Below, in pieces: positions 38,054 to 40,611 of a stretch of DNA of 64,000 bases (position 1 is the stretch's first letter; each line of letters opens with the position of its first letter). Below the pieces are notes generated by a model that saw only the letters and a list, made by a program, of their open reading frames with translations, had not been told where the DNA came from and ran no database searches. The DNA comes from a phage, in the NCBI GenBank assembly GCA_036253495.1, contig GCA_036253495.1_4125.1, one strand, 5' to 3'. Position numbers and translations under genes: made by a program.

Positions 38054-38665
38054 ATGTCTAAATATCATGTTTATTATGTAACCAAATTGAGTTTACTAGA
38101 TGAACTCAATCATACTAGTACCAAAATGAAACGTTATACTTATAATGGTATTACTTTCAGATACTTTCCACAAAAAGTACTAACATTCGTTAAGAATTGT
38201 AAGTGCGTTGCTTGTGGCATCGAGGCTACAGAAGTTCGAATCGAACGTTCTAACTGTAGTGATCCGGTATATGGTAAACCGCATTTAAATGTGTATGCAG
38301 TATGTGGTCTTTATGAAGTTATGATGACTGTAGATCATAATCATCTTGCATCTAAAGGTGGTGCTGATTTGGAGTCAAACTTCAATACTATGTGTGCGAG
38401 ATGTAATCAGTTGCGTTCAAATAAAACTGAAACAGTTGATGAATTCCTTGAGAAAGTCAAAAGCCGAAATCTACTTGAAGAACATATGAATCGTTATTTC
38501 AATAAGATTGAGAAGGAAAGTAAACGTCCTACACCAGAAATGCTCGAAGAACGTAGATTGCGTCAAGAGCTATGGGATAACGATCATCTGTGGCATGTTC
38601 GTGAGTACGGGCGACACATGAAAGCATTAAAAAAGGCACAAAAGCTGTTGGATAAACATGAGTAA
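38054..38665 (+). CDS. HNH endonuclease
   Basis: CKCVACG ... DHNH ... CARCNQ arrangement typical of HNH nucleases. Confidence 0.55.
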   Translation: MSKYHVYYVTKLSLLDELNHTSTKMKRYTYNGITFRYFPQKVLTFVKNCKCVACGIEATEVRIERSNCSDPVYGKPHLNVYAVCGLYEVMMTVDHNHLASKGGADLESNFNTMCARCNQLRSNKTETVDEFLEKVKSRNLLEEHMNRYFNKIEKESKRPTPEMLEERRLRQELWDNDHLWHVREYGRHMKALKKAQKLLDKHE

Positions 38666-38718: not shown

Positions 38719-39075
38719 ATGAAATCAAAAATCTTTTTACCACAGTTAATGTGGCATCTTGCAGAGTTAGATGAAGATGATGTGTATACTGACTATGGTA
38801 CATGGGATGACAGTACTGAAACCTTTGGTCCAGATGTGCAGTACAAAATCATTTACAATGAAAGTAAAGGGCATAGACGATTTACTGAAGAATTTGATCT
38901 TGTTTTTCTTGACATGAACGAGAACAAGTATTATCATTGTACGTATGAACGAGGTTTAACAGAATATCGACCACAACGACCATTCGAGTATGAAACGGAT
39001 GGTGTTAAGTGCAATGAAGTTTCTGTTACCAGAGAAGAAATTATCACTTATAGAACTTTGTGGAAATATGTGTAA
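38719..39075 (+). CDS. hypothetical protein
   Basis: 118 aa ORF. Confidence 0.45.
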   Translation: MKSKIFLPQLMWHLAELDEDDVYTDYGTWDDSTETFGPDVQYKIIYNESKGHRRFTEEFDLVFLDMNENKYYHCTYERGLTEYRPQRPFEYETDGVKCNEVSVTREEIITYRTLWKYV

Positions 39076-39317
39076 TGCTTAAAGATTTAGATTTTTCAAA
39101 CTTAGAAATTGTTAGTGCTGTGAAAAATATCTCTGACATGGGAGACGAAAAGACAGTACTGTTAACTATTACATTTGTCAAAGAAGAAGATAGTTATTTA
39201 CATCTTACAGGTATTGAAGAACTAATTCATAAAACTAATCTACAAGATAATGGGAAGTTTATTAAGCTTCAGGCTTCCTATACGAAAAAAAACGTCAAAT
39301 TTTGTAGACCTAAATAG
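39075..39317 (+). CDS. hypothetical protein (possibly continues to 39474 via shift at A8 run)
   Basis: ATG overlapping upstream stop; A8 homopolymer at 39285-39292 joins this frame to ORF 39250-39474. Confidence 0.4.
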   Translation: MLKDLDFSNLEIVSAVKNISDMGDEKTVLLTITFVKEEDSYLHLTGIEELIHKTNLQDNGKFIKLQASYTKKNVKFCRPK

Positions 39318-39479
39318 TGTAGTCAAGGTGGTATTCAATCACCCTGAACAAAAGTACAGAAATGTGTCACGCAATGAGACAGATGCCAGTACTCTACAGC
39401 TTCTTCAGGATATTGAGTTCATTGAAACAGTATTTGAACGAAGCAGCAAAGAATTGAAAAAAGTTTATATGTAATTGGG

Positions 39480-40194
39480 ACAATACTTTATATTGTGCTA
39501 TAATTATATTGTAATGGAAAATGTCAGTGGACGTTTTAACAACGGACAAGAAGAACCTACTTCTCTTGAAAATGTAAAGGATAGATGAGCCTTCCCACTG
39601 AGGCGATGAGCAAAAGAAACCCGTTAGTACCATCCAAGTGCATTCATACAAACGCGAAATAAGACACGGATCACACGGCGACACGGCTCAATAAAGAACT
39701 CCGATAAGCATACAGAGAGTTCCTCGATAGATGTATAAGGATCGCACCTTACCAGATTTGCTAAGGGAGTTTTACTTAAAACAAGCGGTCAATTTTTCTA
39801 CGGGAAAGTTGCACCCAAAATTTGAGTAAAACGAGTACTGAATTGATCGAATAGTTCCAGTACTTTAGTGCAGGGGATGAAAATACCTGCGACCGTTGCA
39901 TATGACTGCGATAGAGAGAAACAGAGCAACCCGCTTTCGTTCTCCAAAAATTGGACACCCTTGATCCGTCCAAAATATGGAGAAATTCGCAATTCGATAA
40001 ATTCCGATGCCATCAGCGTCAAAATCAAGAACCTTAATTGGTTCTTTTTTAATATCATTCCCCTGCGGGGGGATGAAAATGTCCTCAACAAATCCCGTCA
40101 ATCTTTAAAAGTACAATACAATATTAATTAATATGAATGAGTGAGTTATCGTAGATAACGAAACGAATTCTTGAGTTACGAGAGAACGAAGTGA
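39480..40194. other. ORF-poor region with internal repeats and hairpins (candidate ncRNA or regulatory region)
   Basis: No convincing ORF; only mutually overlapping short ORFs on both strands; GGGGATGAAAAT twice, ACACGG three times, GATGAGC twice; terminator-like hairpin at 40023-40050. Confidence 0.3.
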
Positions 40195-40611
40195 ATGAGT
40201 AACGCAACGAATATTAAAAATTCATCTGATTTAACCAAAGAATTGTTTAAAAAGTTTTTTGAGTATCAAATCAATGAAGAGCACGGAATTAAACAGAATT
40301 ACATAAGTACAATAAAAACTAATAATATCCGTACTGAAATCTATGATAGTGTAATTGAATTTATTAATGCATTGAGTACTGAAAGACCTATAGTAGTTTT
40401 GTTTTTTAAACGAGATTATCCAGTACAAGTCAACAGGAATGTTCATTTCATTACAGAAAATGATTTAAGTACTTACACAACGAGTTCTATTAGGAATTGT
40501 ATACTGATAGTATGTGATGACTCCGAGTATTTTAGTAAAGTTGTATGGGATAGAAGACGTAATTCAGTAATAAGAGATATGAATCCCGAATTTACATTTC
40601 TGATCAAATAA
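40195..40611 (+). CDS. hypothetical protein
   Basis: 138 aa ORF. Confidence 0.4.
   Translation: MSNATNIKNSSDLTKELFKKFFEYQINEEHGIKQNYISTIKTNNIRTEIYDSVIEFINALSTERPIVVLFFKRDYPVQVNRNVHFITENDLSTYTTSSIRNCILIVCDDSEYFSKVVWDRRRNSVIRDMNPEFTFLIK

What the first reader, a model, noticed from the sequence alone, without database searches (positions are those of the whole stretch)
39480..40194. About 700 bp ORF-poor region of visibly different composition with internal repeats: candidate structured ncRNA
The genome is otherwise tightly packed with short intergenic gaps, yet 39480-40194 has no credible ORF, only mutually overlapping short ORFs on both strands with no start signals. Composition looks richer in G and C than the surroundings (not computed). 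It contains direct repeats: GGGGATGAAAAT at about 39873 and 40068, ACACGG three times at 39663-39690, GATGAGC at 39584 and 39606. It has hairpins GCAGG...CCTGC at 39869-39889 and CCCC-TGC-GGGG at about 40060, and a terminator-like hairpin AAGAACC-TTAATT-GGTTCTT plus T-run at 40023-40050. Segments GGAAAGTTGCACC and ACAGAGCAACCCGCTT faintly recall RNase P-type conserved motifs but do not match well. No tRNA T-loop consensus was found.
Basis: partly seen in the sequence, partly recalled or inferred. Interest (0 to 1): 0.7.

Follow-up and report, generated by a model that had tools for sequence, protein, structure and literature searches.

The report
Large pseudoknotted RNA of jumbo phages
The 700-bp gene-free stretch encodes a previously undescribed, intricately folded RNA of roughly 600 nucleotides; giant enterobacterial phages keep it in three or four copies and small bacterial defence islands have also acquired it, so it probably has an important role that nobody has studied.

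Summary
Window 39475-40194 (identical to Escherichia phage A4, Asteriusvirus) has no conserved ORF and is GC-enriched. It has its own promoter (TGGGACA-N13-TGcTATAAT, 39476-39504) and an intrinsic terminator (40027-40050).

It is one of four co-oriented paralogs in the A4 genome. I recovered 98 full-length copies (77 distinct). They come from RaK2-like jumbo phages (3-4 per genome) and from about 11-kb integrative defence islands of Enterobacteriaceae.

Covariation supports an elaborate fold of at least 17 helices, including five pseudoknotted pairings. On 24 copies, 96.6% of cells are paired against 37-44% in slid controls, and 51 of 77 pairs show compensatory changes.

No Rfam 15 family, tRNA or tmRNA matches, and no paper describing it was found. 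The RNase P resemblance is not supported.

The promoter belongs to the phage's class that also precedes replication genes. A very conserved tail lies after the terminator (GC hairpin plus CAAAUCYCGUCAR), and a further module (D2) belongs to the unit.

Function is unknown. I favour a stand-alone folded RNA (RNP or ribozyme-like) made in the replication phase. The main rival is a ColE1 RNA II-like or T4-ori-like pre-primer at replication origins, copied by the islands.

The parts
39476..39504 (+). Promoter: -35-like TGGGACA (39476-39482), 13-nt spacer, extended -10 TGcTATAAT (39496-39504). Predicted start near 39511.
   Evidence: Consensus scan. Conserved in essentially all copies as TGGGACA/TGAAACN-N13-TGnTATAAT. 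The class gives 19 hits in the A4 genome against 2.0 in shuffles, in front of replication genes. It matches the 'divergent RpoD-like' promoters of phage CBB (PMC5259590).
39524..39601 (+). 5' pseudoknot: leader UCAGUGG (39524-39530) pairs with the loop of hairpin Pb, CCACUGA (39595-39601). A variable 5' hairpin lies between them at about 39531-39546.
   Evidence: Covaries between paralogs: CUGUUGAA/UUCAACAG, CUGAAAGG/CCUUUCAG, GUGUGG/CCACAC, CUGAUUG/CAAUCAG (alignment; helix scan).
39562..39581 (+). Hairpin Pa with a conserved bulge and the invariant loop GAAAAYGUA.
   Evidence: 5 of 5 pairs have compensatory changes; 97.5% of cells paired.
39589..39604 (+). Hairpin Pb (GCC/GGC), preceded by the invariant AGAUGAG.
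   Evidence: 100% of cells paired; 2 of 3 pairs covary.
39607..39690 (+). Long-range helices Pc (39607-39611 with 39686-39690) and Pd (39621-39628 with 39673-39678). They enclose a variable insert and are flanked by the conserved AAGAAACCCGUUAG and CACGGCAAUGCGGC.
   Evidence: Pc: 100% of cells paired, 3 covarying pairs. Pd: 100% of cells paired.
39681..39734 (+). Pseudoknot Pf: ACA (39681-39683) pairs with UGU (39732-39734). It spans hairpin Pe (39696-39722).
   Evidence: AUG/CAU, AUA/UAU and ACA/UGU alternate among copies, with 100% of cells paired. Pe has 5 of 5 covarying pairs.
39736..39751 (+). Hairpin Pg (UAAG/CUUA), followed by the invariant CUAAGGGAG (39761-39769).
39769..39832 (+). 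Ph: optional, variable-length domain closed by GUUU/AAAC.
   Evidence: All 4 closing pairs covary. In many copies it is replaced by a short GAAA-capped hairpin.
39835..39863 (+). Hairpin Pi. Its loop UUGAUCGAAUAG supplies one strand of pseudoknot Pj.
   Evidence: The stem covaries by eye (AGUACUGAA/UUCAGUACU against GCCUGAAGU/ACUUUCAGG). The alignment register is imperfect here, so only 64.8% of cells paired.
39846..39998 (+). Pseudoknot Pj: AUCGAAU (39846-39852) pairs with AUUCGAU (39992-39998).
   Evidence: 7 bp. 99.4% of cells paired with 4 covarying pairs in 24 copies. 97-100% paired with 7 of 7 positions covarying in 77 copies.
39870..39890 (+). Hairpin Pk (GCAGG/CCUGC).
39891..39991 (+). 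Most conserved core: CGACC-GUUGC-AUAUGAC-UGCGA-UA-GAGAG-AAACAGA-GCAAC-CCG-CUUUC. It holds three mutually crossing helices: Pl (39895-39899 with 39926-39930), Pm (39907-39911 with 39987-39991) and Pn (39914-39918 with 39934-39938). It also holds the variable hairpin Po (39941-39983).
   Evidence: Pl, Pm and Po are 100% paired, with 3, 4 and 3 covarying pairs. Pn is invariant in 24 copies but covaries in RaK2 (GGACG/CGUUC) and XaC1 (GGAAG/CUUCC).
40006..40025 (+). Hairpin Pq (GAUGC/GCGUC), ending in the first CGUCAA motif.
   Evidence: GACGA/UCGUC in other copies. CGUCAR here changes together with the 3' CGUCAR.
40027..40050 (+). Intrinsic terminator-like hairpin AAGAACC-UUAAUU-GGUUCUU plus U6.
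   Evidence: The stem covaries in 5 of 5 pairs. It is absent in the c3- and c4-type paralogs and has no U-run in island copies.
40055..40101 (+). Conserved tail after the terminator: GC hairpin (CAUUCCCC-UGCG-GGGGGAUG, 40056-40076) and CAAAUCCCGUCAA (40089-40101).
   Evidence: Present in all 77 distinct copies, including those without a terminator. It is not a conserved ORF: 1-nt indels lie between the AUG and the conserved block, and the c4 type has no AUG.
40102..40194 (+). AT-rich spacer (about 40102-40136) and downstream module D2 (about 40137-40194, running into the start of the next ORF). D2 has repeated ACGAA motifs and a hairpin.
   Evidence: GAAUUGAG, GAACGNAGUGA and a covarying hairpin (CAUUC-GAA-GAAUG, CAAUC/GAUUG, CAUAC/GUAUG, CUCGCUU/AAGCGGG) recur after nearly all copies, islands included. 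Direct repeat TAACGAAACGAAT / TAACGCAACGAAT. Whether it is on the same transcript is not known.

Best explanation
Window 39476-40101 is a stand-alone gene for a large RNA with many pseudoknots. Its conserved appendix runs to about 40194. It is not a protein gene and not a leader.

**Proposed course of events**
- Transcription starts near 39511, on the + strand, from a phage-specific promoter class (TGGGACA-N13-TGnTATAAT). The same class drives the phage's DNA-replication genes.
- The RNA folds into a 5' domain (leader/Pb kissing pseudoknot, Pa-Pg, Pf pseudoknot). An optional domain Ph follows.
- Then comes a very conserved 3' core with three crossing helices (Pl, Pm, Pn) and a loop-strand pseudoknot (Pj).
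- Part of the transcripts stop at the terminator (about 540 nt).
- The conserved unit continues through the GC hairpin and CAAAUCYCGUCAR (about 590 nt), and perhaps through module D2.

**Family.** It is one of four ancient, syntenic, co-oriented paralogs kept by RaK2-like jumbo phages.

**Mechanism I commit to.** The folded RNA itself is the active product. It would be an RNA subunit or scaffold of a ribonucleoprotein, or a ribozyme-like RNA. It would be made in the middle (replication) phase and act on phage nucleic-acid metabolism. The enterobacterial islands would carry a captured copy that is switched on by the infecting phage's own transcription machinery.

**What is shown and what is inferred**
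- Shown: conservation, promoter and terminator signals, fold with covariation, absence of coding, copy number, distribution.
- Inferred: transcription, the 3' end, action in trans, and any biochemical activity.
For: - **Source and conservation.** The core is 100% identical to phage A4. It is conserved at 68-81% in 72 jumbo-phage records, where it is mostly unannotated.
- **Copy number.** A4 has four copies, all on the + strand, each in an unannotated gap of about 650-900 nt. Copies are co-oriented in every multi-copy genome or contig seen.
- **Synteny across genera.** One paralog lies between endonuclease VII and the baseplate hub, one after a sigma-factor gene, and one upstream of a Dam methylase gene.
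- **Independent unit.** Copy c2 lies antisense between minus-strand genes, so it cannot be a leader.
- **Promoter and terminator.** The promoter class is enriched 19 against 2.0 and precedes DNA polymerase, SSB, primase, topoisomerase II and the late sigma factor (PMC5259590).
- **Structure.** RNAalifold predicts 73 pairs, 40 of them with compensatory changes. For my 77-pair model with pseudoknots, 96.6% of cells are paired against 37-44% when slid. There are 51 compensatory pairs against 10-16, a covariation score of 0.456 against 0.04-0.10, and 0 of 500 shuffles reach the observed value. The main helices hold at 97-100% in 77 copies.
- **Strand.** An invariant G-U pair and many other G-U pairs fit only the + strand. 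The z-score is -4.48 on + and -2.75 on -.
- **Not coding.**
- **No known family.** No Rfam family, tRNA or tmRNA.
- **Tail belongs to the unit.** The tail is present even where the terminator is missing or lacks its U-run.
- **Character of the conservation.** Long invariant single-stranded stretches and five pseudoknotted pairings are what is seen in RNAs that act through their tertiary structure. This last point rests on established knowledge of RNase P, group I/II introns, OLE, ROOL and GOLLD.
Against: - No transcript, 5' or 3' end, or phenotype has been measured.
- A canonical terminator inside a conserved unit is awkward for a single long functional RNA. If the RNA ends at the terminator, the extreme conservation of the tail and D2 is not explained by a purely trans-acting RNA.
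- Four dispersed, co-oriented, positionally conserved copies, a replication-gene promoter class, an AT-rich spacer and capture by islands without replication genes fit a cis-acting origin function at least as well.
- No partner protein co-occurs in phages and islands.
- c3-type copies carry a hairpin plus U-run directly after the predicted start, which I cannot explain.
Confidence: 0.5

Rival explanations
1. The unit is a replication origin and the RNA is its cis-acting pre-primer. A middle-class promoter fires and the long transcript folds, as ColE1 RNA II does. Its 3' part (GC hairpin, CAAAUCYCGUCAR, AT-rich spacer) forms a persistent RNA-DNA hybrid that primes leading-strand synthesis, as at T4 oriF/oriG. 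The 11-kb islands carry a copy so that an infecting jumbo phage replicates them, and perhaps packages them.
For: - Three to four dispersed, co-oriented, syntenic copies per genome; in A4 at about 65, 126, 206 and 321 kb of 355 kb.
- The promoter class is shared with DNA polymerase, SSB, primase and topoisomerase genes (PMC5259590).
- Beyond the terminator there is a strictly conserved tail, then a sequence-variable AT-rich spacer, then D2 with repeated ACGAA motifs.
- The terminator is dispensable.
- The islands have an integrase and a cI/cro-like switch but no recognisable replication genes, and they keep the phage-type promoter.
- From established knowledge: T4 oriF and oriG are a middle promoter plus an unwinding element, and plasmids carrying them replicate on T4 infection. 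ColE1 RNA II is a structured pre-primer of about 550 nt.
Against: - No known origin transcript needs five pseudoknotted pairings and long invariant loops.
- In most copies an intrinsic terminator lies upstream of the supposed priming site.
- Cumulative GC skew only follows gene orientation and gives no origin signal.
- No initiator or partner protein was identified.
Confidence: 0.3
2. The RNA is a weapon or decoy in phage-host conflict. One version: the island RNA is an RNA antitoxin or sensor of an abortive-infection module (with the adjacent 286-aa and LprI-like proteins), and the phage copies are mimics that neutralise it. The other version: the island copy is a decoy that titrates a phage factor.
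For: - The island copy sits in an element whose cargo is defence systems: Kiwa (KwaA/KwaB), or DarT with an ADP-ribosylglycohydrolase.
- The order RNA, then hairpin, then co-oriented 286-aa and LprI-like genes is conserved in islands with different integrases.
- The island RNA has the phage-type promoter.
Against: - Four ancient, syntenic paralogs across phages of Escherichia, Klebsiella, Xanthomonas, Erwinia and others point to a core phage function rather than an accessory anti-defence gene.
- No island protein has a homolog in A4.
- The RNA is not made of short tandem repeats, as ToxI-type antitoxins are.
Confidence: 0.1
3. The conserved GC hairpin is a solitary CRISPR-repeat mimic (an RNA anti-CRISPR) or a remnant mini-array.
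For: - Sub-threshold Rfam matches to three CRISPR direct-repeat families at 40044-80 on the minus strand: 18-23 bits against gathering scores of 39-40, E about 1.
- UUCCCC...GGGGAU resembles the type I-E repeat. This is from my own knowledge of the repeat and was not tested.
Against: - All scores are far below threshold and on the strand opposite to the promoter and terminator.
- There is one unit only: no array, no spacers, no cas genes.
- The hairpin is equally conserved in phages of hosts with different CRISPR types, and in the islands.
- This would explain about 30 nt of a roughly 600-nt conserved structure.
Confidence: 0.03
4. It is a cis-regulatory leader (riboswitch or attenuator) of the downstream gene at 40195, or a decayed or frameshifted protein gene.
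For: - A terminator precedes a co-oriented gene in copy c1.
- Short ORFs were annotated here in some records.
Against: - Each paralog has a different downstream gene. c2 and the island copies are followed by genes on the opposite strand.
- No frame is conserved, indels break frames, and the annotated ORFs are not conserved.
Confidence: 0.03

Closest known systems
Large 'ornate' bacterial and phage ncRNAs of unknown function (GOLLD, ROOL, OLE, raiA)
   Same: - 500-800 nt, with its own promoter and terminator.
- Many helices with covariation, pseudoknots and long invariant unpaired stretches.
- Often phage-borne (GOLLD, ROOL).
- Function not deducible from sequence.
   Different: - No sequence or structure match to any of them in Rfam 15.
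- Different hosts (jumbo phages of Enterobacteria and Xanthomonas).
- Three to four diverged paralogs per genome.
- A conserved tail beyond a terminator.
- Not next to tRNA genes.
ColE1 RNA II (plasmid pre-primer RNA)
   Same: - A structured transcript of about 550 nt between a promoter and a downstream site.
- G-run and C-run elements near the 3' part.
- The function would be in cis.
   Different: - No sequence similarity was noticed; this was not searched formally.
- No antisense RNA I-type gene is evident.
- The present RNA has pseudoknots and an internal terminator.
- Origin activity is untested.
T4 oriF(uvsY)/oriG(34) origins
   Same: - A middle-mode promoter of the class that drives replication genes, followed by AT-rich DNA.
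- Several origins per genome, in a distant T4 relative.
   Different: - T4 origins have no long conserved structured RNA.
- Here about 590 nt of conserved fold separates the promoter from the AT-rich spacer.
Bacterial RNase P RNA
   Same: Size class, pseudoknots, and short strings such as ACAGAGCAACCCGCUU that look like CR-V.
   Different: - No Rfam RNase P match.
- The GGAAAG motif lies in an optional domain.
- The two 'P4-like' strands both read ACCCG and cannot pair with each other.
- There is no 5'/3' terminal helix.
- There are four copies per genome.
The four 'lncRNAs' of Pseudomonas jumbo phage PA5oct (PMC7318152)
   Same: - A distantly related jumbo phage.
- Four ORF-free transcribed regions of 236-619 nt, found by RNA-seq.
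- ncRNA004 ends with a GC hairpin plus a short conserved-looking tail.
   Different: - nhmmer finds no homology except that tail (E = 0.02).
- None of the core motifs is present.

Membership tests
Any Rfam 15 family (4227 models, including RNase P, tmRNA, group I and II introns, GOLLD, ROOL, OLE, HEARO, raiA, 6S, riboswitches) | Covariance-model score at or above the family's gathering threshold | tested here: not met
   - Zero matches in the whole window at gathering thresholds.
- At E<=10, only scattered sub-threshold hits to unrelated families.
- Nothing recurs at the homologous position in 10 other copies.
Bacterial RNase P RNA | CR-I (GGAAAGUCC) and CR-V strands forming the P4 pseudoknot, plus a terminal P1 helix | tested here: not met
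   - The GGAAAG string lies in domain Ph, which many copies lack.
- The candidate strands AAACCCGUUAG and GCAACCCGCUU are not complementary.
- Covariation pairs them elsewhere, in Pd and Pl.
tRNA / tmRNA | Cloverleaf or tRNA-like domain with T-arm; tag reading frame | tested here: not met
   ARAGORN finds nothing in the window.
Group I / group II introns | Insertion in a host gene with flanking exons; P3-P7 core or domain V | tested here: not met
   - No Rfam match.
- Every copy is intergenic with its own promoter.
- I saw no domain V-like hairpin by eye; this is inference.
CRISPR array / solitary-repeat RNA anti-CRISPR | Repeat matching a host CRISPR repeat family, repeated with spacers or with its own promoter | tested here: not met
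   - Best score is 23.1 bits against a gathering score of 39, on the minus strand.
- It is a single unit.
- The other GGGGATGAAAAT copy (39873) lies inside helix Pk and is specific to A4.
Protein-coding gene (intact or frameshifted) | A reading frame conserved among homologs; indels in multiples of three | tested here: not met
   - Median longest open stretch is 42-56 aa in every frame over 77 copies.
- Indel runs by length mod 3: 351 / 877 / 501.
- The A4_511 frame is broken in the other copies I translated.
Cis-regulatory leader / riboswitch | Constant association with a downstream co-oriented gene or gene family | tested here: not met
   - Downstream genes differ between paralogs.
- c2 and the island copies face genes on the opposite strand.
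RNA-primed replication origin (ColE1 RNA II type or T4 oriF/oriG type) | A promoter of the replication or middle class upstream of the site | tested here: met
   The promoter class is shared with DNA polymerase, SSB, primase and topoisomerase II genes (PMC5259590).
RNA-primed replication origin (ColE1 RNA II type or T4 oriF/oriG type) | Persistent RNA-DNA hybrid and start of DNA synthesis at the site; autonomous amplification of the cloned unit on infection | not testable with these tools
   - Needs marker-frequency sequencing, R-loop mapping or a plasmid amplification assay.
- GC skew is uninformative.
Type III toxin-antitoxin RNA (ToxI-like) | Tandem short repeats processed by an adjacent endoribonuclease toxin | tested here: not met
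   - The repeat finder reported only short two-copy direct repeats in the unit; the dedicated tandem-repeat finder was not run.
- The adjacent island proteins have no ToxN-like or other Pfam, NCBIfam or PADLOC assignment.

The most novel reading that the evidence does not exclude
The unit is a new kind of RNA-primed replication origin of RaK2-like jumbo phages. A roughly 590-nt pseudoknotted pre-primer RNA, made from the replication-gene promoter class, sets up priming at the conserved tail and AT-rich spacer. The 11-kb enterobacterial defence islands (integrase, cI/cro-like switch, Kiwa or DarT cargo, no replication genes) are satellites that copied this origin. An infecting jumbo phage would then amplify and spread them.
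Probability: 0.25. Interest if true: 0.9.

Novelty: categorically new. Interest (0 to 1): 0.85.

Why it matters
- **Rarity.** Large RNAs with this density of conserved tertiary structure are rare. Almost every one understood so far turned out to be a ribozyme or the core of a major cellular machine.
- **How well supported it is.** This family has 98 full-length copies (77 distinct). It has five covariation-supported pseudoknotted pairings. Three to four diverged paralogs are kept for a long time in phages of many genera.
- **Clues to its biology.** The promoter ties it to the replication phase. Independent capture by chromosomal defence islands of Enterobacter, Klebsiella and relatives suggests a point of phage-host or phage-satellite conflict.
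- **What it would open up.** Either outcome would be new biology in a phage group used for therapy: a new catalytic or scaffold RNA, or a new RNA-dependent origin that satellites copy. Both are directly testable with phages already in culture (A4, 121Q, PBECO4, RaK2, GAP32, CBB).
- **A practical point.** About 3 kb per genome is currently mis-annotated or left blank in more than 70 deposited genomes.

Tried and rejected
- **Rfam.** At gathering and at E<=10 on the window and on 10 homologous loci, no family matched. ARAGORN found nothing.
- **RNase P reading.** Rejected; see the membership test.
- **Small ORF starting at the AUGs in GGGGGGAUGAAAAUG.** Rejected. The conserved block changes frame between homologs, and the c4 type has no AUG.
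- **Annotated ORFs A4_511 and 121Q_516.** Not conserved.
- **A second copy inside the window.** None; the paralogs lie elsewhere in the genome.
- **Homology to the RNA-seq-defined PA5oct ncRNAs.** Not detected except for a marginal tail hit, so they give no expression evidence.
- **Pairing partners for the tail.** RNAalifold's proposals (GGG with CYC, UGA with UCA) involve invariant bases, and one pair is broken in RaK2. AUGA with UCAU is only weakly supported. The tail's partner is therefore unresolved.
- **Minus-strand promoter in the tail (YTGACG-N16-18-TTTCAT).** Considered and set aside, because the -10 element lacks the essential A at its second position.
- **Plus-strand promoter for D2.** No convincing -35 element.
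- **Cumulative GC skew as an origin test.** Uninformative.
- **Proteins shared between islands and phage.** None. The island 286-aa protein has only 'hypothetical' homologs.
- **Literature.** Five informative full-text searches and five papers read found no description of this RNA; a sixth search returned only generic matches. Subscription-only papers are not covered.
- **Covariance model.** I did not build one. The family is longer than the model limits, and nhmmer already recovered all copies.
Full report
**1. What is in the window**

- The stretch between the upstream gene (ends 39474) and the next start codon (40195) holds only short, mutually overlapping ORFs.
- GC reaches 0.39-0.43 against about 0.27-0.36 around it.
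- A consensus scan finds one good promoter (39475-39504, with an extended -10 TG) and one intrinsic terminator (40027-40046 plus T-run). Both are on the + strand.
- The window is a near-identical variant of Escherichia phage A4 (ON286972.1, Asteriusvirus, 355 kb). The 715-nt core is 100% identical.

**2. It is conserved and multi-copy**

- blastn finds the region at 76-81% identity in about 36 Asteriusvirus genomes.
- It finds it at 68-75% in phages of Yersinia, Cronobacter, Pectobacterium, Serratia, Erwinia, Xanthomonas, Salmonella and Klebsiella.
- The region is usually unannotated, and there are 2-5 matching places per genome.
- I fetched the whole A4 genome. It has four copies, all on the + strand, each filling an unannotated gap of about 650-900 nt:
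  - c1 is the window copy.
  - c2 lies between endonuclease VII and the baseplate hub, where both neighbours are on the minus strand.
  - c3 lies upstream of the Dam methylase region.
  - c4 lies after a sigma-70-family gene.
- The same contexts recur in other genera, so the paralogs are old and syntenic.
- Paralogs within a genome are 65-70% identical.

**3. Size of the family**

- Two degenerate patterns from the most conserved core were scanned against IMG/VR, the metagenome collection and 100,044 species genomes. They gave 39, 66 and 3 loci.
- A profile built from 24 copies recovers 98 full-length copies, 77 of them distinct.
- Most lie on contigs of 345-378 kb, with 3-4 copies each, always co-oriented.
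- None is in the plasmid collection.

**4. It is an RNA with an elaborate fold**

- RNAalifold on 24 copies predicts 73 pairs, 40 with compensatory changes.
- I then wrote a 77-pair model of 17 helices, four of them crossing the others, and counted it:

| Measure | Observed | Control |
|---|---|---|
| Cells paired | 96.6% | 37-44% (3' partners slid by 1-3 columns) |
| Pairs with changes on both sides | 51 | 10-16 (slid) |
| Covariation score | 0.456 | 0.04-0.10 (slid) |
| Shuffles reaching observed (of 500) | 0 for four of five measures; 9 for further pair types | n/a |

- With 77 copies the main helices are 97-100% canonical with several pair types. The seven-base-pair pseudoknot Pj covaries at all seven positions.
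- Helix Pn is invariant in the first set. It changes compensatorily in RaK2 and XaC1.
- A fifth long-range pairing joins the 5' leader to the loop of hairpin Pb. It changes completely between paralogs while staying complementary.
- G-U pairs, one of them invariant, fit only the + strand.
- The + strand folds better than shuffles (z = -4.48) and better than the minus strand does (z = -2.75).

**5. It is not coding**

- No frame stays open among the 77 copies.
- Indels are mostly not multiples of three.
- The ORFs annotated in some records are not conserved.
- The AUGs in the tail do not start a conserved peptide: the conserved block shifts frame among homologs, and one paralog type lacks the AUG.

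**6. Promoter class**

- Every copy is preceded by TGGGACA/TGAAACN, 13 nt, then TGnTATAAT.
- In A4 this pattern occurs 19 times against 2.0 in shuffles, always on the + strand.
- It stands in front of DNA polymerase, SSB, primase, topoisomerase II, an exonuclease, the late sigma factor and three of the four RNA copies.
- The CBB genome paper described the same class (-35 TGAAACG with a normal -10) upstream of DNA-synthesis genes (PMC5259590).
- The RNA is therefore probably made together with the replication genes. This is an inference from promoter class, not a measurement.

**7. Where the unit ends**

- Most c1- and c2-type copies have a covarying terminator hairpin with a U-run.
- Directly after it comes one of the most conserved parts of the locus: a GC hairpin and CAAAUCYCGUCAR.
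- c3- and c4-type copies lack the terminator but keep this tail. In island copies the hairpin has no U-run.
- The tail therefore belongs to the functional unit.
- Its CGUCAR changes together with an identical motif at the end of hairpin Pq: CGUCAA/CGUCAA, CGUCAG/CGUCAG, and CUUCAA/CUUCAA in RaK2. I cannot explain this.
- After the tail come an AT-rich spacer of variable sequence and then module D2, which has recurring GAAUUGAG and GAACGNAGUGA, repeated ACGAA, and a covarying hairpin.
Whether D2 is on the same transcript is open.

**8. Beyond jumbo phages**

- One clade of the family lies in chromosomes of Enterobacteriaceae (Silvania, Enterobacter, Klebsiella and others), inside an integrative island of about 11 kb.
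- In the complete chromosome CP193790.1 the island sits between rlmI and yccX. Its gene order is: large serine recombinase, three unknown genes, the RNA, a cI-like S24 repressor on the opposite strand, a small HTH gene, a 286-aa protein, an LprI-like protein, an invertase, an unknown gene, and Kiwa (KwaB/KwaA).
- Related islands at other sites carry a tyrosine integrase instead, or DarT with an ADP-ribosylglycohydrolase as cargo.
- No recognisable replication or packaging gene was found, and no island protein has a homolog in A4.
- The island RNA keeps the phage-type promoter, the tail and D2.
- It clusters with copies from XaC1-like jumbo phages.
- Two of 5,426 complete E. coli genomes have a partial match.

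**9. Comparison with what is known**

- No Rfam 15 family matches the window or ten other copies, even at E<=10. There is no tRNA or tmRNA.
- The RNase P resemblance fails on its defining features.
- The weak CRISPR-repeat hits are sub-threshold, single and on the wrong strand.
- Full-text searches and the genome papers for this phage group mention no such RNA.
- The related phage PA5oct has four RNA-seq-defined 'lncRNAs'. They are not detectably homologous, apart from a marginal match of the tail of ncRNA004.
- In kind, the closest things are the large 'ornate' RNAs GOLLD, ROOL and OLE. In possible mechanism, the closest are ColE1 RNA II and the T4 oriF/oriG origins. These comparisons rest on established knowledge of those systems, not on a match found here.

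**10. How it most likely works**

- That this is a gene for a structured RNA I hold at more than 0.9.
- The mechanism is much less certain.
- I commit, at about 0.45-0.5, to a stand-alone RNA that acts through its fold. It would be a ribonucleoprotein core or a ribozyme-like RNA made in the replication phase. The density of pseudoknots and invariant unpaired nucleotides is the signature of such RNAs.
- The main rival, at about 0.3, is a cis-acting pre-primer at replication origins. It explains the following better:
  - the dispersed, co-oriented copies;
  - the promoter class;
  - the conserved tail and AT-rich spacer beyond a dispensable terminator;
  - the capture by islands that lack replication genes.
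- That rival explains the elaborate fold and the terminator less well.
- A role as decoy or antitoxin in phage-island conflict (about 0.1) is suggested only by the island context.
- Leader, coding and CRISPR-mimic readings are contradicted.

**11. Limits**

- No expression data exist for this phage group in the sources I could search.
- The 5' and 3' ends are predicted.
- Parts of the alignment (Pi, Pk, Pq, D2) are not in perfect structural register.
- The sequences are related, so shuffle controls overstate significance. The slid-partner control, which keeps relatedness, is the fairer one, and it is also decisive.

Noticed in passing
window 39285 (A-run), ORFs 39060-39317 and 39250-39474: Compared with ON286972.1 the window has one extra A in a homopolymer. 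This splits the upstream gene (A4_510, the homolog of 121Q_515 'structural protein') into two overlapping ORFs. It could be a sequencing or strain difference, or a slippery run.
   Followed up: partly
window 37973 and 50991; A4 record positions listed: Further promoters of the class TGGGACA-N13-TGnTATAAT. There are 19 in the A4 genome against 2.0 in shuffles, all on the + strand, in front of replication genes and the late sigma factor. They match CBB's 'divergent RpoD-like' promoters.
   Followed up: partly
L003:15106-15160 (A4 copy c3) and the c3-type copies: c3-type paralogs have a strong hairpin plus U-run immediately after the predicted transcription start, and they lack the 3' terminator. 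It could be the upstream gene's terminator, a 5' stabiliser or an attenuator.
   Followed up: no
L129:3578-14464 (CP193790.1, about 1780500-1791400): An 11-kb integrative island between rlmI and yccX. It carries a serine recombinase, the RNA, a cI/cro-like pair, an unknown 286-aa protein, an LprI-like protein, an invertase and the Kiwa defence system. Sister islands carry a tyrosine integrase, or DarT with an ADP-ribosylglycohydrolase.
   Followed up: partly
L020 (Serratia BF), L009 (XbC2), L024: just downstream of c1-type copies: In several jumbo phages an ADP-ribosylglycohydrolase gene lies at or within one gene downstream of the RNA. An enzyme of the same family (with DarT) is cargo of one RNA-bearing island. 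This may be coincidence.
   Followed up: no
L011:30273-32584 (A4 record 230273-232584): The large terminase is annotated as two CDSs separated by a 275-nt gap. Possible intron, intein or frameshift.
   Followed up: no
L002:4139-6138 (A4 record): A 2-kb stretch without any annotated gene in a region of tightly packed small ORFs. It has no Rfam match at gathering thresholds.
   Followed up: partly
L038:1372-1417 (PA5oct ncRNA004, 3' end): The RNA-seq-defined lncRNA of a distant relative ends with UUUCCUUCCC-AAAC-GGGGAGGAAA followed by a short tail. This resembles the GC hairpin and tail here (nhmmer E = 0.02).
   Followed up: partly
window 38054-38665: An HNH homing-endonuclease gene (A4_508) lies 0.8 kb upstream of the RNA gene. 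No link to the RNA was found.
   Followed up: no
NZ_AP027515.1 3479142-3479515 and NZ_CM130020.1 245242-245615: Two of 5,426 complete E. coli genomes contain an unannotated partial match (52% coverage, 70% identity) to the island form of the RNA.
   Followed up: no
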